From sequence record PZ452578.1: DNA of 64,000 bases. One strand, 5' to 3'. The stretch comes from a phage. Both the position numbers and the translations under genes were made by a program. The notes beneath the pieces are model-generated. The model was not told the origin of the DNA. It saw nothing but the letters and a program-made list of their open reading frames with translations, and did not search any database. Numbering within the stretch: the first letter of the stretch is position 1; each line of letters opens with the position of its first letter. Of the stretch, positions 51,795 through 60,399 are shown one piece after another.

Positions 51795-52115
51795 TTATAG
51801 CGTAATCCATTCTCGTACTGTCTGAGTTACTACACGTTCTCGAGGTTCGACTAGTTCAACAGTCGGAACTGCATAATACCAGTCAGAATGATAAGAACCT
51901 GAACGGCATTCATTTACGGAAACATGTACATTATGTTTTGGACTAAAATAAACACACTGACGATATTGGCATTTACCATCTTGCACCCAGTCTTCTATTT
52001 CGATAGGTTTAAGATAGTCAGAAAAATCGAAATCATAGTTTTCCGAAAATGCATCATGGTCTTCGATGATTTCACTCAGAACTGCATCAACATCTAATTT
52101 ATTTTCAGTATTCAT
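51795..52115 (-). CDS. hypothetical protein (106 aa)
   Basis: ORF track. Confidence 0.55.
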   Translation of the reverse strand: MNTENKLDVDAVLSEIIEDHDAFSENYDFDFSDYLKPIEIEDWVQDGKCQYRQCVYFSPKHNVHVSVNECRSGSYHSDWYYAVPTVELVEPRERVVTQTVREWITL

Positions 52116-52125
52116 TTTTCACCAA

Positions 52126-52335
52126 TTAATTTCGCAATTTATCAAGTTCTTCATAATCAATCCAGGATTCTAATCCTGATGGCAAATCAGATTCAATTTC
52201 CCAAAGAAGTTCTTCAATTTTATGAAGACGATCTAATTCTTCAGCTGGAATAGTAACCATTGATGGAGTTCTTGATACACTAATATCGTAAATCATATTT
52301 ACCCCAGTTTGACCATACAATCGCCGTATTTCCAC
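52126..52335 (-). CDS. hypothetical protein (69 aa)
   Basis: ORF track. Confidence 0.5.
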   Translation of the reverse strand: MEIRRLYGQTGVNMIYDISVSRTPSMVTIPAEELDRLHKIEELLWEIESDLPSGLESWIDYEELDKLRN

Positions 52336-52514
52336 TTAGAAATAGACTTTTCGCCATTAGAATAATAAACTTCAAGTTTAGCACGGTTATTTTTAATTTG
52401 AATAACCTTTGCTGTCATCAAAGTTCCATACCCATAATAAACTGCAACTTCATCACCTACATATACCGCGCTTCCGCGGTAGTCATGGATATAATCAGTT
52501 CCTTCAAGCATCAT
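52299..52514 (-). CDS. hypothetical protein (71 aa)
   Basis: ORF track. Confidence 0.5.
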   Translation of the reverse strand: MMLEGTDYIHDYRGSAVYVGDEVAVYYGYGTLMTAKVIQIKNNRAKLEVYYSNGEKSISKWKYGDCMVKLG

Positions 52515-52774
52515 TTAAAGTATTCCCGCAATTGGTCAAATCCACCAATATGACTTCCATCAGGAGCAAATACCTGAGGCATTGTCAAGCCGATTTGAGT
52601 ATCACGACCTAGTTTAGTCAGAAGCTCAGCGATTTTCTCATCATCAAAAACACCTTTTTCCGGCATAATGTTGATAAATTCAAACGGCTGTTTCTTCACG
52701 GTCAAAAGACGTTTTGCATTATCACAATACACGCATTTATGAATGTTGCTATCATAACCATATACTTTAAACAT
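52511..52774 (-). CDS. nrdC: NrdC thioredoxin/glutaredoxin
   Basis: ORF track 87 aa; CVYC active site; matches T4 NrdC. Confidence 0.85.
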   Translation of the reverse strand: MFKVYGYDSNIHKCVYCDNAKRLLTVKKQPFEFINIMPEKGVFDDEKIAELLTKLGRDTQIGLTMPQVFAPDGSHIGGFDQLREYFK

Positions 52775-52775
52775 A

Positions 52776-53033
52776 TTATTCCTTAATTCCTAGTACTTGT
52801 TTAAAAGTCTCGTCGTAATCAAGACTTTGGCCCGTTTGTTCTTTATATTTGTATATAATATCACTTACTTCTGATAGCATATTTTTATATGAACGAGTTA
52901 AAGCTGATTTAAGCACGCTGTATCTATCAGGAAATTTACCATGTTCATTATAATACGCTATTGCTAATTCACGGACTGCCTTTTCAGCAGTCTCCATATA
53001 TTCTTTACGCTTGGTCATTTTCTTCTCGGTCAA
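52776..53033 (-). CDS. hypothetical protein (85 aa)
   Basis: ORF track. Confidence 0.55.
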
Positions 53034-53319
53034 ATCGGTGTTTACAATGGCGACATTTATAACGAAGATTATTAGTCTGCCAATGGACTAATTGCACCTG
53101 TTCAGTTCCACACTCAGGGCAATTAGGAACGTTTTTAGAAGCCCTTTCGCGACGTTCAACCATGACCATTACAGAATCCCAATTAATAGGGCTGCTATAA
53201 TCATCACAACCATAAATCTTTCCACGCATTTCCAGATCGTCTTCTTCACCAGCCATAATAATTTTAATTAGACTAGAATTACTTGAAGCTGCAATATCTT
53301 CTAATAAACGCTTTTTCAT
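53005..53319 (-). CDS. zinc-ribbon protein (104 aa; CPECG...CRHC)
   Basis: ORF track; C4 motif. Confidence 0.55.
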
Positions 53320-54245
53320 TTCAGTACCTCAATAGCATTACGTAAACCATTTGCTTTTGCATTAAGAGCTTTTAACAATTTGGTGTGTTCTGCAATTTGG
53401 GCTTCAACTTCAATCAAACGAGCATTGAGATATTCGCGTTCTTCGCTCAAGTTATCAACCTTTTCTACTTTAGGCTCTTTTACAACTGTCTTATATGTAT
53501 TAGGGTTCTTCAGTTTAATTAGAATGCGTGAACTGTATAACATTGAACCATTATCTTCGGTTTCGTCATACATTTCTACTACGTCCATAATTTCTAACAT
53601 CACGCGAAGTTTATAAGACAACGAACGAATAGTTTTGTTGTGCTTATTAATTTCTTTAGCTGTCATGGTGCCGAGATTACGTGAGTAATAATAAGGAACC
53701 TGGATATTAATTAATACTGATGAACCACCTGGCTTGTGTGTTACTTCATCAGCAATAACCCAGTCCTTAACGTGAACTGTATTTGTACGGTCATCGCCCG
53801 CGGTAAATAGTTTGCGAGCATGCTTAAAAAGCATATTCACTTGGTCATTGAATTGACAAGCAAATTTATCAGCAAATTTGGTTTCAGGAATGGTAGAAAA
53901 CCAATTAGCCAAATGAGTCTTTTTAACATCATTAACAATAGTAAATTCAACCAAATCGGTTATAGATGTCTCAGATTTAATGAAGCTCGGCTTCATAAAG
54001 TTTTTAATGTTCTCATGAGCTACAGTAGAAGATAACATACGAGAACGTTTAAACCATTCAAGCAAATTGCCTAACGAATGAGAATAAGCGTTTTGAGTAT
54101 CTTTACAGATATGATTTTCCTGGCCAACATATTGAAGGAAATCACGAAGAATATTATTGATTACTGCTCTGTGTCCTATCTGATAATTACGATGTTTAGT
54201 AATAAGACTATCAAAATAATCAATATAATGTTTACGAGTTTTCAT
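53316..54245 (-). CDS. paralog family member 1 (309 aa) with C-terminal coiled coil
   Basis: ORF track; shared motifs with the next three ORFs. Confidence 0.65.
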   Translation of the reverse strand: MKTRKHYIDYFDSLITKHRNYQIGHRAVINNILRDFLQYVGQENHICKDTQNAYSHSLGNLLEWFKRSRMLSSTVAHENIKNFMKPSFIKSETSITDLVEFTIVNDVKKTHLANWFSTIPETKFADKFACQFNDQVNMLFKHARKLFTAGDDRTNTVHVKDWVIADEVTHKPGGSSVLINIQVPYYYSRNLGTMTAKEINKHNKTIRSLSYKLRVMLEIMDVVEMYDETEDNGSMLYSSRILIKLKNPNTYKTVVKEPKVEKVDNLSEEREYLNARLIEVEAQIAEHTKLLKALNAKANGLRNAIEVLK

Positions 54246-54299
54246 GTTCTTCTCACTTGGTTAATGATTTATGCTCCGAGCCATCCTTGGCTTTAAATT

Positions 54300-55301
54300 T
54301 TACTTAATTAACTGTAAAGCTTGTTCTAGACGATCAAGACGATTAACAGATTCTTCCCAAATCCTTTTAGCCTGCTCATATTCTTTGTGCGCTTTATTAG
54401 AAATTTCTAGAACTTCTTTATAAGCTTTTTCTAGTGCAATAACTTCTGGACGAATTTCTATCGGTTCAGGTGAATCGTCAAGACATTCCATTAGTTCCTC
54501 AAGGGTAGTTTCTTCTTTAGGAGTATTCACAATTTCATCACATTTTTGTTGATAAATTTCTTTATCAGTAGGTGAGTACGCGCACTTTACTTCACGAAGA
54601 CTAATTACAATTTTATATCCTTCCCAGCCGCATATATTCTTAAAAGGATATGTATGAATATTTTCTACTGTTTCCATACAAAGTAATGCGGTCTCTAATT
54701 GACGAGTTATAGTGCTAGCAATTGAGAAAAATTTATTAATATTCTTTTGGTTAGTTTCTGGTGTAAAAAATCTGTAATTAATAAAAATAGCTACTTTGTT
54801 TTTATCAAGCTCATATTCTTCTGCTATAATCATATCATCAGCTAAGGGATGAATTTGACGATAATCGCCATAACATAATTTAGAAGCTGATTTTAGAATT
54901 TGCTTCGTAAAACTCCTAAATTCACTAACCCAACGACGAGTAAAAATATTCTCAGGGTCTTCTTTAGTATTAAGATGATAAGTATTAACATCACCGAACC
55001 AATTGTATCCTACTACATCTTTGGTTCGTTTAATTTCTTTCCCAAATTTACCAAGAATATCTTGATTAACTAAATATGAAAGAAGACGAGACCCTTTAAA
55101 GGTTTCCTTAATATCATCTTTATCTGCACGACTAGAAATTTTATGAACTTCATGAATAAATTTGCTGGAAGAAACAATACTTGCATCAGTATTATTGAGC
55201 CATTGATTGATAATGGAAATAACGCTATTCTGACTAGACATAGGTTTAACTTTATCATCAATAACGCTATTGAATGATTTGATATATTCGTTACGAGTCA
55301 T
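54300..55301 (-). CDS. paralog family member 2 (333 aa)
   Basis: ATG at 55301 with GAGGAG RBS; track start lies inside the upstream promoter. Confidence 0.65.
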   Translation of the reverse strand: MTRNEYIKSFNSVIDDKVKPMSSQNSVISIINQWLNNTDASIVSSSKFIHEVHKISSRADKDDIKETFKGSRLLSYLVNQDILGKFGKEIKRTKDVVGYNWFGDVNTYHLNTKEDPENIFTRRWVSEFRSFTKQILKSASKLCYGDYRQIHPLADDMIIAEEYELDKNKVAIFINYRFFTPETNQKNINKFFSIASTITRQLETALLCMETVENIHTYPFKNICGWEGYKIVISLREVKCAYSPTDKEIYQQKCDEIVNTPKEETTLEELMECLDDSPEPIEIRPEVIALEKAYKEVLEISNKAHKEYEQAKRIWEESVNRLDRLEQALQLIK

Positions 55302-55329
55302 ATTAATCTCCTCAGTAGAAAGTAAGAAC

Positions 55330-55365
55330 ATTATACCACATCCTTGTGGCGAAGTAAACTAGTTT
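55330..55365 (-). promoter_or_regulatory. T4-type early promoter (GTTTAC / TGgTATAAT), near-identical to the one at 9356..9390
   Basis: Plus attataccacatccttgtggcgaagtaaact. Confidence 0.65.
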
Positions 55366-56378
55366 AGTGCATTTAGTGCATTGTTCAGTTTAGAACGTTG
55401 CTTCGTGAGATTTTTGACTTTTTCTTGAGCTTTTTCTAGCATCTTTTCAGCTTCTAGCACTTCATTAGTTGCTTTGACGAGTTCATCATCTACTGCCTTG
55501 ATAGACTTCTCAATCGCATCCGCGTGCCATTTTTCAACAGGTTTAAGACTCGGATTTTCAACAGGAAGAAAATTCACTTTATTGAATTTCCATGCATCTT
55601 TATTACCTGAACTATACATCCAAAATTTAGGATCGTTTGATGAGTAATTAGATAAATTTAAGTTATCTTGCACTTCTTGCTTTTTCTCTTGCGGGACTTC
55701 GTCCTTTCTCAAAAAATCGTATTTAAATGAAACGATCATATCAAGTTCATATGTTGTTGTATGTTCCCAATTTCGCTCAAAACGAGGTAAAATCTTAGAA
55801 TGAACTGCAGCAACAACATCCATATACTTAAATGCTTCTGTCAACTGCGATTTAAGGCATTCGCAAATTGAAAGAGAATTTTTTGTATTAGGTTTAAAGC
55901 TAATTCGTGCAGTTCTATTATTTTCTTTTAATGGTCTTACTTCCATCTGAAGAGTATAACCATCAAATTTCAAGTTCTTTAAGTTAATGTCAGAACCTTT
56001 TAATCGACTAGCCGTCGACAAAATTTGCTTTAATTGTTTACGGAATAGAGCAATAAATCTCCATTCAATACGATAATGATTTGGATTGAAAAATCCAGAT
56101 GATAAATCGACCTTACTCTGACCAACACCTTGAACAAATAGAGGATTTTTATAATCAATAGTTTTACAGAAATCGGTGAGCTGCTCACGAGCAGTCATTT
56201 GTGTAATATACCCCGCTTTACTAAAATGACGTAATAATTCACTGCTATTTAGATATTTAAAGTGAATAGCACGATTAACTTTATCAGGGTCTAAATTATT
56301 TTCACACAAAAATGTCATAACATTACGAGTATCGCTGCCAGTACGAACCATATCTTCAATTTGAGAACGAGTTTTCAT
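55359..56378 (-). CDS. paralog family member 3 (339 aa)
   Basis: ORF track. Confidence 0.65.
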   Translation of the reverse strand: MKTRSQIEDMVRTGSDTRNVMTFLCENNLDPDKVNRAIHFKYLNSSELLRHFSKAGYITQMTAREQLTDFCKTIDYKNPLFVQGVGQSKVDLSSGFFNPNHYRIEWRFIALFRKQLKQILSTASRLKGSDINLKNLKFDGYTLQMEVRPLKENNRTARISFKPNTKNSLSICECLKSQLTEAFKYMDVVAAVHSKILPRFERNWEHTTTYELDMIVSFKYDFLRKDEVPQEKKQEVQDNLNLSNYSSNDPKFWMYSSGNKDAWKFNKVNFLPVENPSLKPVEKWHADAIEKSIKAVDDELVKATNEVLEAEKMLEKAQEKVKNLTKQRSKLNNALNALN

Positions 56379-56386
56379 GGTGTTCC

Positions 56387-57301
56387 TTAAGATTTAAGTA
56401 AATCAACAATTTTAATTAACTTTTCACGCTCAGATTTAGCTTTACTACTCAGTCCAGATAGTCTGAAAATTTCATCATCATATTGTTGAATAGAAATATT
56501 CAGCTCTTCAATCTGTTTATTAAAATAATCAATTTGTTCAGAATGTTTTTCGTTACTACGAAATGGTACAGGTTTTGTAGGCAATTTAGTTGAATTGGAT
56601 TCATCCGGGCGATAAATTAAAATACAACTTGAACCAATCGGACATTTAGCACCAGATGAATATTCTAACGTTCCAGCTTCTTTTAAAACTTCAAAAGCTA
56701 AACAGAGATGATGCCCCATATTGACATAATCTGTAGAGTGAGCTCTGACATAATAATCATCTCCACGAGTACTAAATTTAAAGCATTTAAGGTCTTCTGT
56801 ATTATTAGTTTTAAAAATCATTTGTTTATCTAGACCTTTAGCTAATCGAGCGCCTAATGCTAATAATCGTCGTTGATTTTCCCACAAATCCGCAATCATT
56901 TGGTCAAATGATAATTTTGGCATTAGTCGACCATAAAGGTCATATCCTTTATTATAATTACGAAGGATTTCACTCGCGTTAATACGAGACAACGCTCCAA
57001 TTTTATTAAGGGCTTTCATAATACGATTAGATAAACTCATTCCAGACCCGTTTGTTCGCCGTAAATGTTTTTCTAATCCAAATCCAATATCAACTTTAAA
57101 TTTATCTAAAATTTCAGCATGAACATCTCTGTCAATAACATTCAAATCCAAAGTTGGGTTAAATCTATGAAAAAATTTATCTGGCTCTCCACGACGAAGT
57201 ACAGTCCATTCATTCATCATTTTTTTATTAACTAAAGATTTAATTACTGCATTGACATTATTAATTGCTACTGACATATTTTCCTCACTCAATTTTACCA
57301 A
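56387..57301 (-). CDS. paralog family member 4 (304 aa)
   Basis: ORF track. Confidence 0.65.
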   Translation of the reverse strand: MVKLSEENMSVAINNVNAVIKSLVNKKMMNEWTVLRRGEPDKFFHRFNPTLDLNVIDRDVHAEILDKFKVDIGFGLEKHLRRTNGSGMSLSNRIMKALNKIGALSRINASEILRNYNKGYDLYGRLMPKLSFDQMIADLWENQRRLLALGARLAKGLDKQMIFKTNNTEDLKCFKFSTRGDDYYVRAHSTDYVNMGHHLCLAFEVLKEAGTLEYSSGAKCPIGSSCILIYRPDESNSTKLPTKPVPFRSNEKHSEQIDYFNKQIEELNISIQQYDDEIFRLSGLSSKAKSEREKLIKIVDLLKS

Positions 57302-57741: not shown

Positions 57742-58269
57742 TTATGCGAGTACCGTCTTTAACCGTTCTTCAAACTTCCGAAGAGTATTCTGGCGTTCAG
57801 CTCTTTGCTTTTTGTAAGTTTCAATACGCTCTGAAATGAGAGTGTATCGTTCATTTACTGATTCTTTCATAAAATCAGGAATTTCACGAGAAGCTTTAAT
57901 CTCGTCAAATTTATCAATAACAGCTTGCTCTTCAGCAATTAAGTTATCATACATCAAAATATCTTTCTTGATGAACTCAATATCTTCTTGAGTTACACGA
58001 GATAACTTAGATGCTTTATCCTTTTTGTACTGTTCGTTAGTATCACGAGACCAGTGTAATGCACGATTTTTATTCGTATTTTTGTAAATTTCTACAATAC
58101 CAATCTCATCAATAATAACGATCCAATTCCAACGGGATTTGTAAATCTGCCCTCCATCAACCGTAATTTCACCTCCGATTGAGATGTCATTAAAGAACTT
58201 GCTTTGTGCTTCTGATTTAAATTTACCATCGTTGTAATTTACCAGGTTGAAAATATCTTTAGCGTTCAT
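57742..58269 (-). CDS. hypothetical protein (175 aa)
   Basis: ATG at 58269 with GGAGG RBS; track extension is promoter read-through. Confidence 0.65.
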   Translation of the reverse strand: MNAKDIFNLVNYNDGKFKSEAQSKFFNDISIGGEITVDGGQIYKSRWNWIVIIDEIGIVEIYKNTNKNRALHWSRDTNEQYKKDKASKLSRVTQEDIEFIKKDILMYDNLIAEEQAVIDKFDEIKASREIPDFMKESVNERYTLISERIETYKKQRAERQNTLRKFEERLKTVLA

Positions 58270-58714: not shown

Positions 58715-59434
58715 TTACGATTCTTCTAAATGTCTTTTCTGAAAAGTTGATACCATACTACGATAAGGTTCATTTGGATACCCGTGTTTTATAGCTTCCT
58801 TTGTAAATTTTCTCCATCCGTATTTAGTTTCTTTCCAAAGCTCGAATAATTCATCTTCATACTGCCATATAGTTAAATGAGAACGCTTTGCAGCTTTAAT
58901 TCCATTAATGTGCTTTTCTTTTACTGTAGGATTGCTTAGTGTCTTTTTAATAATATTACTAACTTTTCTAACAAAAGCTGGGTCCTTATATCGTTGTGAA
59001 GTTTTTATTGAAGTGTTTAATTTAGCTTCCGGCGTGGATGTGACCTCTTTCATCTTTTTCTTCATATGCTCTATATGATTAGGATTTTTCCATAAATTTA
59101 TAGAATGCTTTTTACATTTTATCCTAGTTTCATCTGCAACCTTTCCTCCTTCACCCCCATATGACAGGTTAACGCAGTTTTTTCCATATTTCAATTTACC
59201 TGCCATGATATATAATATTTCGGCTTGTACCATTTTATCATAATTATCAAAAACTTCTAAAACCGTTTTTGATAATATATGGTCATTTGACACTTTTACA
59301 CGTTCTATATAATTTCCACTACCAACATACGAATCATTGATGTTATTAGTTATATGTCGACCATAATAGTATTTCTTAATACCTGTCTTTAAATTTAATA
59401 TTTCAGTTTTATAGATAGTAAAATATTTTTTCAT
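58715..59434 (-). CDS. putative GIY-YIG-family homing endonuclease (239 aa)
   Basis: ORF track; N-terminal TIYK...KYYYG pattern and Lys-rich C-terminal repeats; weaker match than the 42349 gene. Confidence 0.5.
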   Translation of the reverse strand: MKKYFTIYKTEILNLKTGIKKYYYGRHITNNINDSYVGSGNYIERVKVSNDHILSKTVLEVFDNYDKMVQAEILYIMAGKLKYGKNCVNLSYGGEGGKVADETRIKCKKHSINLWKNPNHIEHMKKKMKEVTSTPEAKLNTSIKTSQRYKDPAFVRKVSNIIKKTLSNPTVKEKHINGIKAAKRSHLTIWQYEDELFELWKETKYGWRKFTKEAIKHGYPNEPYRSMVSTFQKRHLEES

Positions 59435-60399
59435 TTTAATAATACCGTTTCAGCGATTTCTTCCCAACCGTTTTTGTCGGTCATAATAAAGTCAGCAAGA
59501 TAAAGAGCAGTACGCAGTGAAACATTACGTAAACGATTAACATTGACTTTCATCCATGATAATGCTTTATAAGTTTCTTCATCAGAAAGACCGCGTTTTT
59601 GCATCATGTCAGTTGAAAGAATAACATCTTCAACCCTGACCATAATTTCTTCATTAGTGTGAACACCCAAATCTAAATAAACTGAGCGGGACACTAATGC
59701 TTGTAAATGTGGAGCAAGTTTAGTACCACGGTCTAATTCACGGTCAATGTCAACGTTTGTGATAAAAACAATTGTTCCTTTAAATTCAAACTCACGGTCA
59801 ATGCCTTTTTCTTCTAAGTAAGAAGATGCAGTGCTCCAGCAGACTTTACGGGTCTCTCCAGTGTCCAGAGCAGCTTTCAGAAGATTAAGAATGTCCATAT
59901 CAGAGAAAACATCCACATCATCAATCAAAAGGACAGAATTCTCTTCACGATTATTCCAAAGCTGTTCATAAAGACCGATACCAGAGATTTTACCATTAAT
60001 GCTTTTATACTCAATGTATCCAATATCATTTGCTTTATTTAAAGCTTTATCTAAAGAATACGTTTTACCAATGCCTGCCGCACCAGAGATAATTAATGAA
60101 CGAATGTTTCCGTTAATAATACCATTCGTCATCATTCCCATAACATTAAATCTTTTATTAATGCGGGTTTTCATATCTTCATATGATTCTTTAACTTCTT
60201 CAACTTTTACACCATCATATGAAATGTCTGATTTGTAAACCCAAACACCGCGACGCTTACCGTCAATTTCAACAAAAACTTTACCATCTCCTTGTGCATC
60301 TACCGGAGCATTATCAGGGAACCACTCACCTAAGAGTTCAAAAGTTCCAGAGATTTCTTTACCGAAGTAGATACCCTTATTGATAGTTACAGTTTTCAT
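59431..60399 (-). CDS. P-loop NTPase (AAA+-like), 323 aa
   Basis: ATG at 60399 with GGAG RBS; Walker A GAAGIGKT, Walker B VLLIDDVD. Confidence 0.7.
   Translation of the reverse strand: MKTVTINKGIYFGKEISGTFELLGEWFPDNAPVDAQGDGKVFVEIDGKRRGVWVYKSDISYDGVKVEEVKESYEDMKTRINKRFNVMGMMTNGIINGNIRSLIISGAAGIGKTYSLDKALNKANDIGYIEYKSINGKISGIGLYEQLWNNREENSVLLIDDVDVFSDMDILNLLKAALDTGETRKVCWSTASSYLEEKGIDREFEFKGTIVFITNVDIDRELDRGTKLAPHLQALVSRSVYLDLGVHTNEEIMVRVEDVILSTDMMQKRGLSDEETYKALSWMKVNVNRLRNVSLRTALYLADFIMTDKNGWEEIAETVLLK

What the first reader, a model, noticed from the sequence alone, without database searches (positions are those of the whole stretch)
53316..57301. Tandem array of four divergent paralogs (304-339 aa) with C-terminal coiled coils
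Four consecutive genes share a central motif (consensus L..A.[RK]L..G: KQILSTASRLKG / KQILKSASKLCYG / RRLLALGARLAKG / NMLFKHARKLFTAG) and a later block (QLTEAFKYMDVVAAVH / QLETALLCMETVENIH / KLRVMLEIMDVVEMY / LCLAFEVLKEAGTLEY), then each ends in a heptad-like coiled coil. N-terminal regions are diverged. Tandem, rapidly diverging paralogs in an accessory region suggest a diversifying family interacting with variable host targets.
Basis: seen in the sequence. Interest (0 to 1): 0.6.

Follow-up and report, generated by a model that had tools for sequence, protein, structure and literature searches.

The report
Four-paralog T4 nrdC.3–nrdC.6 anti-defence array
Four neighbouring genes of a T4-like phage (nrdC.3 to nrdC.6) are old, strongly diverged copies of one gene; one copy is already reported to switch off a bacterial antiviral system (Dsr1), which makes the other three untested candidates for the same kind of job.

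Summary
The window is a Tequatrovirus, at most 96.5% identical to any record in the phage collection. The four minus-strand ORFs are the orthologues of T4 nrdC.3, nrdC.4, nrdC.5 and nrdC.6. Their true lengths are 309, 333, 339 and 296 aa.

Profile comparison shows one family. nrdC.3–nrdC.4 gives E=4e-13 and nrdC.4–nrdC.5 gives E=5e-6. nrdC.6 joins at E=5.6e-5, or 7e-7 once a Karamvirus bridging protein is added.

AlphaFold models of nrdC.5 and nrdC.6 have the same order of elements: N-terminal helices, a helix pair, β-β-α-β-β, a disordered linker and a C-terminal coiled coil. Their Foldseek searches hit each other's relatives.

No solved structure or functional domain family matches. The family is tiny: 16 clusters among 1.84 billion proteins.

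T4 nrdC.5, 92% identical to the window protein, is published as overcoming the Dsr1 sirtuin defence. The neighbours 49.2, nrdC.1 and nrdC.8 are also published anti-defence genes.

The four genes evolve 3–20 times faster at the protein level than conserved neighbours, but ω stays below 1. nrdC.3 carries a swapped central cassette. Copy number ranges from 1 to 4, through whole-gene deletions at the shared ATG-AAA-ACT-CGT start.

Best reading: a family of binding-type anti-defence proteins. This is shown for one member and inferred for the other three.

The parts
53316..54245 (-). nrdC.3, 309 aa. Paralog 1; closest to nrdC.4.
   Evidence: ORF. phrog_1435, E=2e-115. HHalign to the nrdC.4 family: 97.9%, E=4e-13. 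61% aa identity to T4 nrdC.3.
54300..55301 (-). nrdC.4, 333 aa from the ATG at 55301.
   Evidence: phrog_1435, E=6e-165, aligned from residue 11 of the long ORF. SD GAGGAG lies before the ATG at 55301. Homologues carry PF26897. 91% aa identity to T4.
55359..56378 (-). nrdC.5, 339 aa. Orthologue of the published T4 anti-Dsr1 gene.
   Evidence: Pfam DUF7235 (PF23882), E=3e-125. 91.8% aa identity to T4 nrdC.5. AF2 model pLDDT 71. Function reported in PMC9391042.
56387..57277 (-). nrdC.6, 296 aa from the ATG at 57277. The most distant paralog.
   Evidence: phrog_2257, E=2e-150, aligned from residue 9 of the TTG ORF. SD GAGGA. Homologues carry PF26899. AF2 model pLDDT 79. HHalign to the nrdC.3/4/5 profile: E=5.6e-5, z=11; E=7e-7 with the bridging protein.
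55330..55358 (-). Early-type promoter-like site, TTTACT-17 nt-TG-n-TATAAT, between nrdC.5 and nrdC.4.
   Evidence: Consensus scan, 10 of 12 matches plus an extended -10. Sequence read. The same element precedes nrdC.3 in phage LYE-01 after loss of nrdC.4. The region-wide promoter count is not above chance, so this is a prediction.
53796..53837 (-). Motif B of nrdC.3 (NMLFKHARKLFTAG), second helix of the conserved helix pair.
   Evidence: Coordinates. In register in HHalign and MAFFT alignments.
54867..54905 (-). Motif B of nrdC.4 (KQILKSASKLCYG).
   Evidence: This region has the lowest dN/dS of any region in three of the four genes; in nrdC.4 itself it is 0.14, second to the coiled coil at 0.07.
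55995..56030 (-). Motif B of nrdC.5 (KQILSTASRLKG), within AF2 helix 116-127.
56834..56872 (-). Motif B of nrdC.6 (RRLLALGARLAKG), within AF2 helix 135-145. Nearly invariant across 100 homologues.
53319..53450 (-). C-terminal coiled coil of nrdC.3 (aa 266-309).
   Evidence: Heptad test: a/d hydrophobic fraction 0.85, p=0.009.
54303..54449 (-). C-terminal coiled coil of nrdC.4 (aa 285-333).
   Evidence: Heptad test: 0.86, p=0.001. dN/dS 0.07.
55362..55538 (-). C-terminal coiled coil of nrdC.5 (aa 281-339).
   Evidence: AF2 predicts a single helix over residues 280-338. Heptad test: 0.88, p<0.001.
56390..56554 (-). C-terminal helical hairpin or coiled coil of nrdC.6 (aa 242-296).
   Evidence: AF2 helices 243-272 and 278-295. 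Heptad test: 0.75, p<0.001. dN/dS 0.01.
53400..54200 (-). Variable central cassette of nrdC.3. Only 52-67% nt identity to T4, between flanks at 97-99%.
   Evidence: Sliding-window identity to T4 GT7 and a T2/T6-type locus. Three allele classes appear in 654 phage records. The window allele is 77% identical to the Mosigvirus-type allele and 61% to T4's.
56367..56378 (-). Start of nrdC.5, ATGAAAACTCGT (MKTR). It is identical to the start of nrdC.3 at 54234-54245 and acts as a recombination point for whole-gene deletions.
   Evidence: Direct repeat D6. The phage fPS-2 junction joins the nrdC.5 upstream context to the nrdC.3 body exactly here.
54234..54245 (-). Start of nrdC.3, ATGAAAACTCGT (MKTR). 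Partner of the repeat above.

Best explanation
nrdC.3, nrdC.4, nrdC.5 and nrdC.6 are four ancient tandem duplicates of one gene. The gene is specific to T4-like phages, expressed early and dispensable.

All four keep the same body plan:
- an N-terminal helical region;
- a strongly conserved helix pair (motifs A and B);
- a disordered linker;
- a C-terminal heptad coiled coil.

I propose that they are non-enzymatic, binding-type counter-defence proteins. In this model the conserved helix pair and the coiled coil form a scaffold that oligomerises. The faster-evolving N-terminal, β-domain and linker surfaces would recognise a particular host immune protein and block either its sensing or its effector step.

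nrdC.5 would do this to the SIR2-TPR defence protein Dsr1, in the way DSAD1 blocks DSR2. The other three would act on other, still unidentified, strain-specific defences.

The repertoire is reshuffled in two ways. The central cassette is exchanged, as in nrdC.3. Whole genes are lost or gained by recombination across the shared ATG-(AAA)-ACT-CGT start.

Shown: the paralogy, the common architecture, non-essentiality, raised rates, the cassette, the copy-number changes and the anti-Dsr1 phenotype of the T4 orthologue. Inferred: direct binding, oligomerisation through the coiled coil, and any anti-defence role for nrdC.3, nrdC.4 and nrdC.6.
For: Paralogy:
- BLASTP, HHalign and shuffle controls.
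- Bridging proteins: P0237 hits the nrdC.3, nrdC.4 and nrdC.5 HMMs. A Karamvirus 332-aa protein hits the nrdC.6 HMM at 6e-6 and aligns in register to the nrdC.3/4/5 profile.

Same architecture:
- The AF2 secondary-structure order is the same in nrdC.6 (pLDDT 79) and nrdC.5 (pLDDT 71).
- The nrdC.5 model hits the BFVD model of an NrdC.6 protein at E=3e-4, probability 1.0. It shares seven other hits with the nrdC.6 search. All are 304-346 aa proteins of T4-like phages.

Function:
- T4 nrdC.5 expressed in trans restores plating of a T4 deletion mutant on cells carrying dsr1 (PMC9391042). The window protein is 91.8% identical and syntenic.
- Published anti-defence genes in the same block: Gp49.2 against OLD (PMC13096335), nrdC.1 against Septu and Bas37_0203 against Druantia III (bioRxiv 10.1101/2025.11.20.689424). 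Bas37_0203 is the nrdC.8 orthologue, 98.9% identical to the window protein.
- All four genes are non-essential on K-12.

Evolution:
- dN/dS is 0.10-0.28, against 0.01-0.09 for gp49, nrdC, nrdC.1, nrdC.8 and nrdC.10.
- Between genera, identity is 24-47% against 68-87% for these same five conserved genes.
- Motif B is the most constrained region in three of the four genes; in nrdC.4 the coiled coil is lower still. The N-terminal domain, β-domain and linker are among the least constrained regions.
- nrdC.3 has a central cassette.
- Copy number is 1 in a Karamvirus, 2 in Acj61, 3 in Mosigvirus- and Dhakavirus-type loci, and 2-4 within Tequatrovirus, with unit-precise junctions.
Against: - Only one of the four has any phenotype, and its mechanism is unknown. 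Binding to Dsr1 has not been shown.
- No domain reaches ω>1 in the full nine-sequence set, so an arms-race signature is not demonstrated. The nrdC.3 cassette has saturated dS, which points to an old allele rather than recent adaptive change.
- The main text of the HIDEN-SEQ study names none of nrdC.3, nrdC.4 or nrdC.6 among its anti-defence hits. In the single comparison per phage that the search displayed, none of the four was significantly depleted; the supplement's other comparisons were not read.
- nrdC.6 is very conserved within Tequatrovirus (94-97%, ω=0.10), which is less like a fast-changing evasin.
- Three of the four proteins are basic (pI about 9.2). That would also suit nucleic-acid binding.
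- The evidence that nrdC.6 belongs rests on a core of about 70 residues plus predicted, not solved, structures.
Confidence: 0.6

Rival explanations
1. The paralogy is real, but only nrdC.5 is a counter-defence factor. The other three copies have a different early-infection role, for example binding nucleic acid or host housekeeping proteins to remodel the cell, or they are functionally redundant spares.
For: - nrdC.3, nrdC.5 and nrdC.6 are basic, with pI 9.2-9.3.
- nrdC.6 is highly conserved and under strong constraint (ω=0.10; coiled coil 0.01; motif A-B 0.03).
- No anti-defence phenotype for nrdC.3, nrdC.4 or nrdC.6 appears in the HIDEN-SEQ main text.
- nrdC.3 has a weak, sub-threshold resemblance to the N-terminal core-binding domain of XerC/D recombinases (E=0.003, far below the curated cut-off).
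Against: - All four are dispensable on K-12 and are lost in nature. fPS-2 keeps only nrdC.3 and nrdC.6, and LYE-01 lacks nrdC.4.
- They sit among four other published or homologous anti-defence genes.
- No DNA-binding domain reaches significance in Pfam or NCBIfam.
Confidence: 0.22
2. The four proteins are subunits of one hetero-oligomeric assembly, held together by their C-terminal coiled coils. They act together on a single target, so the array is one machine rather than a repertoire.
For: - All four end in a heptad coiled coil with a similar last turn (L-x-x-A-[LI]-x-x-L-[KN]).
- They are adjacent and on the same strand with short gaps, including 8 nt between nrdC.6 and nrdC.5.
Against: - nrdC.5 alone, from a plasmid, restores infection on Dsr1 cells (PMC9391042). 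The extent of the deletion in that mutant is not given in the main text.
- Viable natural phages carry 1, 2 or 3 members in different combinations.
- The members evolve at very different rates.
Confidence: 0.1
3. nrdC.6 is not homologous to nrdC.3, nrdC.4 and nrdC.5. The resemblance would be convergence of helical, coiled-coil-tailed proteins, leaving a three-gene family plus an unrelated neighbour.
For: - Pairwise BLASTP of nrdC.6 against the others is not significant.
- HHalign of nrdC.3-nrdC.6 and nrdC.4-nrdC.6 without tails gives z of about 1.
- The low-diversity profile A3 against A2 gives E=0.15.
- A whole-database HMM search with the nrdC.3/4/5 profile recovers no nrdC.6 cluster.
- Foldseek TM-scores are low, 0.3-0.5.
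Against: - Merged profile against nrdC.6: E=5.6e-5, z=11, over the non-coiled-coil core. With the Karamvirus bridge it rises to 92%, E=7e-7.
- Four motifs occur in the same order, and the AF2 element order is the same.
- The nrdC.5 model hits an NrdC.6 model at E=3e-4 and shares seven family-specific hits. All unrelated hits have E>1e-3.
- The position is syntenic and tandem in several genera.
Confidence: 0.06

Closest known systems
T4 NrdC.5, the anti-Dsr1 factor (Srikant, Guegler and Laub, eLife 2022; PMC9391042). Pfam DUF7235 (PF23882).
   Same: The window's nrdC.5 is the syntenic orthologue: 91.8% aa identity and a full-length DUF7235 match at E=3e-125. The other three genes are its paralogs.
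   Different: The paper treats nrdC.5 as a lone uncharacterised gene. It reports neither mechanism nor paralogy. Anti-Dsr1 activity has not been tested for this phage's allele, which differs at 8% of residues, or for the paralogs.
DSAD1 of phage SPbeta, inhibitor of the sirtuin defence DSR2 (PMC11087589, PMC11263360, PMC10981675).
   Same: It is a functional analogue. A non-enzymatic phage protein neutralises a SIR2-domain NADase defence; according to the abstracts of those papers, DSAD1 represses DSR2, which the tail tube protein activates. This is the model I borrow for how nrdC.5 might act on Dsr1, whose TPR sensor is reported to recognise major capsid protein (PMC12803255).
T-even internal proteins IPI, IPII, IPIII and Bas37_0260.
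   Same: This is another T-even set of dispensable anti-defence proteins. They keep one short conserved terminal module while the rest diverges, and different members counter different host systems: IPI against GmrSD, IPIII against an unknown ECOR17 system, Bas37_0260 against McrBC (PMC9391042; bioRxiv 10.1101/2025.11.20.689424).
   Different: Internal proteins are small, packaged in the capsid and injected, and share only an N-terminal capsid-targeting signal. The nrdC.3-nrdC.6 proteins are 34-40 kDa, share a full-length architecture with a C-terminal coiled coil, and have no such signal.
PHROG and Pfam groupings: phrog_1435, phrog_2351, phrog_2257; PF26897, PF23882, PF26899.
   Same: Each window protein is a full-length member of one of these families of unknown function. 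phrog_1435 already merges nrdC.3 with nrdC.4.
   Different: The databases keep nrdC.5 and nrdC.6 as separate, unrelated families. The evidence here links all of them into one superfamily.

Membership tests
Pfam DUF7235 (PF23882), nrdC.5 type | Full-length match above the gathering score of 30 bits. | tested here: met
   nrdC.5 scores 418 bits, E=3e-125, over residues 1-339. The other three paralogs do not reach it.
PHROG 1435 / Pfam PF26897, nrdC.3 and nrdC.4 type | Full-length profile match. | tested here: met
   phrog_1435: nrdC.3 E=2e-115 and nrdC.4 E=6e-165. PF26897 is precomputed on all nrdC.4 homologues and on a fusion protein containing nrdC.3 sequence. PF26897 itself is absent from the local Pfam copy, so it was not scored directly.
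PHROG 2257 / Pfam PF26899, nrdC.6 type | Full-length profile match. | tested here: met
   phrog_2257, E=2e-150. All 105 homologues carry PF26899.
Proposed nrdC.3-nrdC.6 superfamily | Significant profile-profile similarity outside the coiled coil. | tested here: met
   With tails removed, z=28, 8.7 and 6.0 among nrdC.3/4/5. nrdC.6 against the merged profile: E=5.6e-5, z=11; E=7e-7 with the bridge. Direct nrdC.3-nrdC.6 and nrdC.4-nrdC.6 comparisons are not significant.
Proposed nrdC.3-nrdC.6 superfamily | Same fold and order of elements: helices, helix pair, β-β-α-β-β, linker, terminal coiled coil. | tested here: met
   AF2 models were made for nrdC.6 and nrdC.5 only, with reciprocal Foldseek hits. 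nrdC.3 and nrdC.4 were not modelled. The structures are predictions with pLDDT 71-79.
Anti-Dsr1 factor (functional class of T4 NrdC.5) | Orthology to T4 nrdC.5: high identity and the same genomic position. | tested here: met
   91.8% aa identity over the full length, between nrdC.6 and nrdC.4.
Anti-Dsr1 factor (functional class of T4 NrdC.5) | Restores phage growth on Dsr1-expressing cells. | not testable with these tools
   Shown only for the T4 allele (PMC9391042). A plaque assay is needed for this allele and for the paralogs.
DSAD1-like sirtuin-defence inhibitors | Sequence or fold similarity to DSAD1. | tested here: not met
Coiled-coil proteins | Heptad periodicity of hydrophobic residues in a long predicted helix. 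| tested here: met
   a/d hydrophobic fraction 0.75-0.88, p<=0.009 in all four tails. AF2 predicts terminal helices. The oligomeric state was not tested.
Genes under diversifying (positive) selection | dN/dS above 1, gene-wide or in a domain. | tested here: not met
   Nei-Gojobori estimates on 9 Tequatrovirus sequences: 0.10-0.28 gene-wide and at most 0.43 per domain in the full set. A value of 1.04 appears only in a three-sequence subset of nrdC.3 (its coiled coil, T4-type alleles), where dN and dS are both about 0.025. Site models were not run.

The most novel reading that the evidence does not exclude
The family is a retargetable evasin scaffold. A constant helix-pair and coiled-coil chassis oligomerises. 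An exchangeable middle cassette (end of the N-domain, β-β-α-β-β domain and linker) specifies which host immune sensor is blocked. Phages would re-equip themselves in two ways: by swapping cassettes between genera, as in the nrdC.3 alleles, and by adding or dropping whole units through recombination at the conserved ATG-AAA-ACT-CGT start. On this reading nrdC.3, nrdC.4 and nrdC.6 each neutralise a different defence system still to be identified, and the family reaches Acinetobacter phages and, on Foldseek evidence alone, phages of Erwinia, Serratia and other hosts, in forms too diverged for sequence searches.
Probability: 0.3. Interest if true: 0.7.

Novelty: new member of a known kind. Interest (0 to 1): 0.5.

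Why it matters
Phage counter-defence genes are still found mostly one at a time. Here a published anti-Dsr1 gene turns out to be one of four paralogs, sitting among several other published anti-defence genes. That gives three concrete, cheap candidates (nrdC.3, nrdC.4, nrdC.6) for inhibitors of unknown E. coli, Shigella or Yersinia defences. It also gives a natural set of chimeras, the nrdC.3 cassette alleles, for mapping what determines target specificity.

The family has no solved structure or known domain, so a structure of NrdC.5 with Dsr1 would probably show a new way of inhibiting a sirtuin defence.

The unit-precise deletions at a shared 12-nt start show how such arrays shrink. The reverse event would show how they grow. 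This bears on host-range differences among therapeutic T4-like phages.

The genes themselves are ordinary, already catalogued T4 ORFs, and the mechanism remains inferred.

Tried and rejected
- Domain and family searches. Pfam, NCBIfam and PADLOC scans of all four proteins found only DUFs or sub-threshold noise: DUF3905, the PHL domain, the XerC/D N-terminal domain and a PgrA coiled coil, all far below their cut-offs.
- Low-diversity profiles. The built-in profile comparison with the nrdC.5 alignment (Neff 1.5) gave no link to nrdC.6 (E=0.15) and only E=1.5e-4 to nrdC.4. Significance needed the more diverse homologues taken from other genera.
- Is Bas37_0203, the anti-Druantia III gene, a family member? 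No. It is the 175-aa nrdC.8 orthologue two genes upstream, and its profile does not match any of the four families.
- Other neighbours in other genera. KPV15 gp116, the Karamvirus 257-aa ORF and Acj61p118 showed no similarity.
- DNA-level repeats between paralogs. Only short matches were found. Two are in register: the shared start codons, and a 23-nt stretch in the coiled coils of nrdC.4 and nrdC.5.
- Promoter scan. The number of sigma-70-like sites equals the shuffle expectation (27 against 26.7), so only the intergenic site with an extended -10 is reported.
- Positive selection. No domain has ω>1 in the full set; the single 1.04 comes from three nrdC.3 sequences with dN and dS near 0.025.
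- Literature. Searches for nrdC.3, nrdC.4, nrdC.6, DUF7235 and anti-Dsr1 found no further functional data. The extent of the T4 evo 3 deletion could not be found in the main text.
- The Druantia/Zorya preprint on Bas37 held nothing on these genes.

Full report
**What the region is**

The window is a T4-like phage of genus Tequatrovirus. The 3,986-bp interval matches 655 phage records. The best match is 96.5% identical (phage ECML-123-2), and 463 records cover at least 80% of the interval.

In annotated relatives the four minus-strand ORFs are nrdC.3, nrdC.4, nrdC.5 and nrdC.6. They lie between nrdC/nrdC.1/nrdC.2 and nrdC.7-nrdC.11. Against T4 itself the proteins are 60.6, 90.7, 91.8 and 97.3% identical.

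- nrdC.4 begins at the ATG at 55301, behind GAGGAG. The longer ORF's ATG lies inside the -10 box of an early-type promoter, TTTACT-17-TGgTATAAT.
- nrdC.6 begins at the ATG at 57277, behind GAGGA, as in all its homologues.

The proteins are therefore 309, 333, 339 and 296 aa.

**Are they paralogs?**

Pairwise BLASTP supports nrdC.3-nrdC.4 (E=1.5e-7, 26% over 226 aa) and nrdC.4-nrdC.5 (E=6e-4). It does not link nrdC.6 to anything.

I built family alignments from database homologues and from ORFs in related loci of other genera.

HHalign on these alignments gave:

| Pair | Probability | E-value |
|---|---|---|
| nrdC.3-nrdC.4 | 97.9% | 4e-13 |
| nrdC.4-nrdC.5 | 86% | 5e-6 (236 columns) |
| nrdC.3-nrdC.5 | 72% | 3.5e-5 |
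| nrdC.5-nrdC.6 | 25% | 8e-4 |

Coiled coils can inflate such scores. I therefore removed the tails and compared each score with 60 column shuffles. The z-values were 28, 8.7 and 6.0 among nrdC.3/4/5 and 4.5 for nrdC.5-nrdC.6. They were about 1 for nrdC.3-nrdC.6 and nrdC.4-nrdC.6.

A merged nrdC.3/4/5 profile was then compared with the nrdC.6 family. The profile included three bridging sequences from the whole-database search. The result was E=5.6e-5 and a score of 41.6, against 13.8±2.5 (maximum 22.6) for 100 shuffles. The match covers the non-coiled-coil core.

Adding one Karamvirus protein to the nrdC.6 side raised this to 92% probability and E=7e-7. That protein hits the nrdC.6 HMM at 6e-6 and aligns in register to the other profile.

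They also reveal a third, upstream motif and a shared M(K)TR start in nrdC.3, nrdC.4 and nrdC.5.

**Structure**

AF2 gave usable models for nrdC.6 (pLDDT 79, pTM 0.67) and nrdC.5 (pLDDT 71, pTM 0.60).

Both show the same order of elements:
- N-terminal helices;
- a helix pair carrying motif B;
- a low-confidence linker;
- a long C-terminal helix or helical hairpin.

Against BFVD, the nrdC.6 model hits 304-335 aa uncharacterised proteins of other T4-like phages at 11-15% identity, with E from 3e-7 to 9e-4. These are phages of Enterobacter, Pectobacterium, Acinetobacter, Klebsiella, Citrobacter and Yersinia.

The nrdC.5 model hits seven of the same proteins. It also hits an NrdC.6 model directly (E=3e-4, probability 1.0). 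All unrelated hits are weaker than about 1e-3.

The heptad pattern in all four tails is significant.

**Distribution**

An exhaustive HMM search with the nrdC.3/4/5 profile found only 16 clusters at E<=1e-3 among 1.84 billion representative proteins. All were nrdC-type proteins or fragments of them. At the sequence level the family is therefore confined to T-even-like phages.

Its copies always sit in tandem just upstream of nrdC. Copy number varies:
- four in most Tequatroviruses;
- three in Mosigvirus-type loci (nrdC.6', nrdC.5', nrdC.3') and in Dhakavirus/Gaprivervirus-type loci (nrdC.6, nrdC.5', nrdC.4);
- two in Acinetobacter phage Acj61: p120 matches by HHalign at E=2.7e-5, and p121 is a Foldseek hit;
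- one in a Karamvirus.

Within Tequatrovirus, fPS-2 keeps only nrdC.3 and nrdC.6, and LYE-01 lacks nrdC.4.

The junctions are informative. fPS-2 joins the upstream context of nrdC.5 to the body of nrdC.3 exactly at the 12-nt start ATGAAAACTCGT that the two genes share. LYE-01 joins the nrdC.4 promoter, SD and start to the nrdC.3 body at ACTCGTAA. The conserved 5' codons thus act as crossover points that remove whole units in frame.

**Evolutionary rate**

Among nine Tequatrovirus sequences, dN/dS is 0.28, 0.21, 0.17 and 0.10 for nrdC.3 to nrdC.6. For gp49, nrdC, nrdC.1, nrdC.8 and nrdC.10 it is 0.01-0.09.

Between genera the family proteins are 24-47% identical, where those same five conserved genes are 68-87%; pin and nrdC.9 are as divergent as the family.

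By region, motif B is the most constrained in nrdC.3 (window-type alleles), nrdC.5 and nrdC.6 (0.03-0.08); in nrdC.4 it is 0.14, behind the coiled coil at 0.07. The N-domain, β-domain and linker are among the least constrained regions (about 0.11-0.27). Nothing exceeds 1 in the full set; a single 1.04 in a three-sequence nrdC.3 subset rests on dN and dS of about 0.025.

nrdC.3 is a special case. A central block at about 53400-54200 is only 52-67% identical to T4 at the nucleotide level, between flanks at 97-99%. Three allele classes occur across 654 records. The window's allele is nearer to the Mosigvirus-type allele (77%) than to the T4/T2/T6 allele (61%). This indicates exchange of old cassettes rather than fast point change.

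**Function**

The literature search found one functional result. T4 nrdC.5, described there as an uncharacterised early gene, restores plating of a T4 deletion mutant on cells carrying the SIR2-domain defence gene dsr1 when expressed from a plasmid (PMC9391042). Dsr1's TPR sensor is reported to recognise phage major capsid protein (PMC12803255).

Neighbouring genes are also published counter-defence factors:
- Gp49.2 against OLD (PMC13096335);
- nrdC.1 against Septu (bioRxiv 10.1101/2025.11.20.689424);
- Bas37_0203 against Druantia III (same preprint).

I identified Bas37 as phage KarlGJung and Bas37_0203 as its nrdC.8 orthologue. It is 98.9% identical to the window's nrdC.8 and unrelated to the four-gene family.

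In that preprint's supplement, T4 nrdC.3-nrdC.6 and Bas37_0198-0201 are all classed as non-essential on K-12.

**Interpretation**

The paralogy and common architecture are well supported. The anti-defence role is established for one orthologue. For the other three it is a reasonable inference from paralogy, genomic context, dispensability, rate, cassette exchange and copy-number flux.

The proposed mechanism is a non-enzymatic binder whose coiled coil gives oligomeric avidity and whose variable surfaces give specificity, analogous to DSAD1 on DSR2. This is inferred from the absence of any enzyme-like domain and from the pattern of constraint. It has not been tested.

Rival readings are listed with their evidence:
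- only nrdC.5 is anti-defence;
- the four form one hetero-complex;
- nrdC.6 is unrelated.

**Novelty**

The genes are catalogued T4 ORFs, placed in DUF and PHROG families that databases keep apart, except that nrdC.3 and nrdC.4 share a PHROG. I found no paper describing them as one paralogous family or linking the anti-Dsr1 gene to its neighbours. The new content is modest but directly testable.

Noticed in passing
window 57742-58269 (-): This is nrdC.8 (175 aa from MNAKD...). It is 98.9% identical to Bas37_0203, reported as an inhibitor of Druantia type III. It has its own heptad-like C-terminal tail but no detectable homology to nrdC.3-nrdC.6.
   Followed up: yes
L028 (Yersinia phage fPS-2) 3900-3970; L029 (phage LYE-01) 3898-4010; window 56367-56378, 54234-54245, 55293-55301: Natural whole-gene deletions in the array have junctions exactly at the shared start codons: ATGAAAACTCGT for nrdC.5/nrdC.3 and ACTCGTAA for nrdC.4/nrdC.3. 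In LYE-01 this puts nrdC.3 under the nrdC.4 early promoter.
   Followed up: yes
window 58715-59434 (-): A 239-aa homing-endonuclease ORF (phrog_314, E=4e-30) lies between nrdC.9 and nrdC.10. The block of about 700 bp is absent from T4 GT7 and Bas37 but present in a T2/T6-type viral contig (L010).
   Followed up: partly
window 52126-52550 (-): The stretch between 49.2 and nrdC holds two small ORFs of 69 and 71 aa, the second being DUF7205. It is only 38-56% identical to T4 at the nucleotide level, so T4's 49.3 is replaced here. Gene 49.2 itself (51795-52115; 96% identical to T4 49.2; the T6 homologue is reported as anti-OLD) is missing from several close relatives, including Bas37.
   Followed up: partly
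window 53005-53319 (-) nrdC.2 and 52776-53018 (-) nrdC.1: nrdC.2 is also hypervariable within Tequatrovirus (55-97% aa identity, dN/dS 0.20) and has a weak zinc-ribbon signal. nrdC.1 (98-99% identical to T4's; reported anti-Septu) is highly conserved.
   Followed up: partly
database proteins P0161, P0001, P0233: Three odd relatives turned up. P0161 is an out-of-register fusion of the N-terminal part of nrdC.5 to the C-terminal part of nrdC.3, with nrdC.4 lost. P0001 (Shigella phage Sf25 NrdC.6, 378 aa) carries an internal duplication of about 80 aa. P0233 has an unrelated N-terminus joined to a tail identical to the nrdC.5 coiled coil.
   Followed up: no
L025 (Acinetobacter phage Acj61) 13745-15765; L027 (Enterobacter phage fGh-Ecl04) 14663-15661: Distant family members lie in the same position upstream of nrdC: Acj61p121 and p120 (304 and 330 aa) and a Karamvirus 332-aa protein. 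The last bridges the nrdC.6 and nrdC.3/4/5 profiles.
   Followed up: partly
window 59431-60399 (-) nrdC.10: This gene is widely conserved, in 1,312 phage records including Vibrio, Aeromonas and jumbo phages. Its matches to P-loop/AAA and nSTAND3 NTPase models are all below threshold.
   Followed up: no
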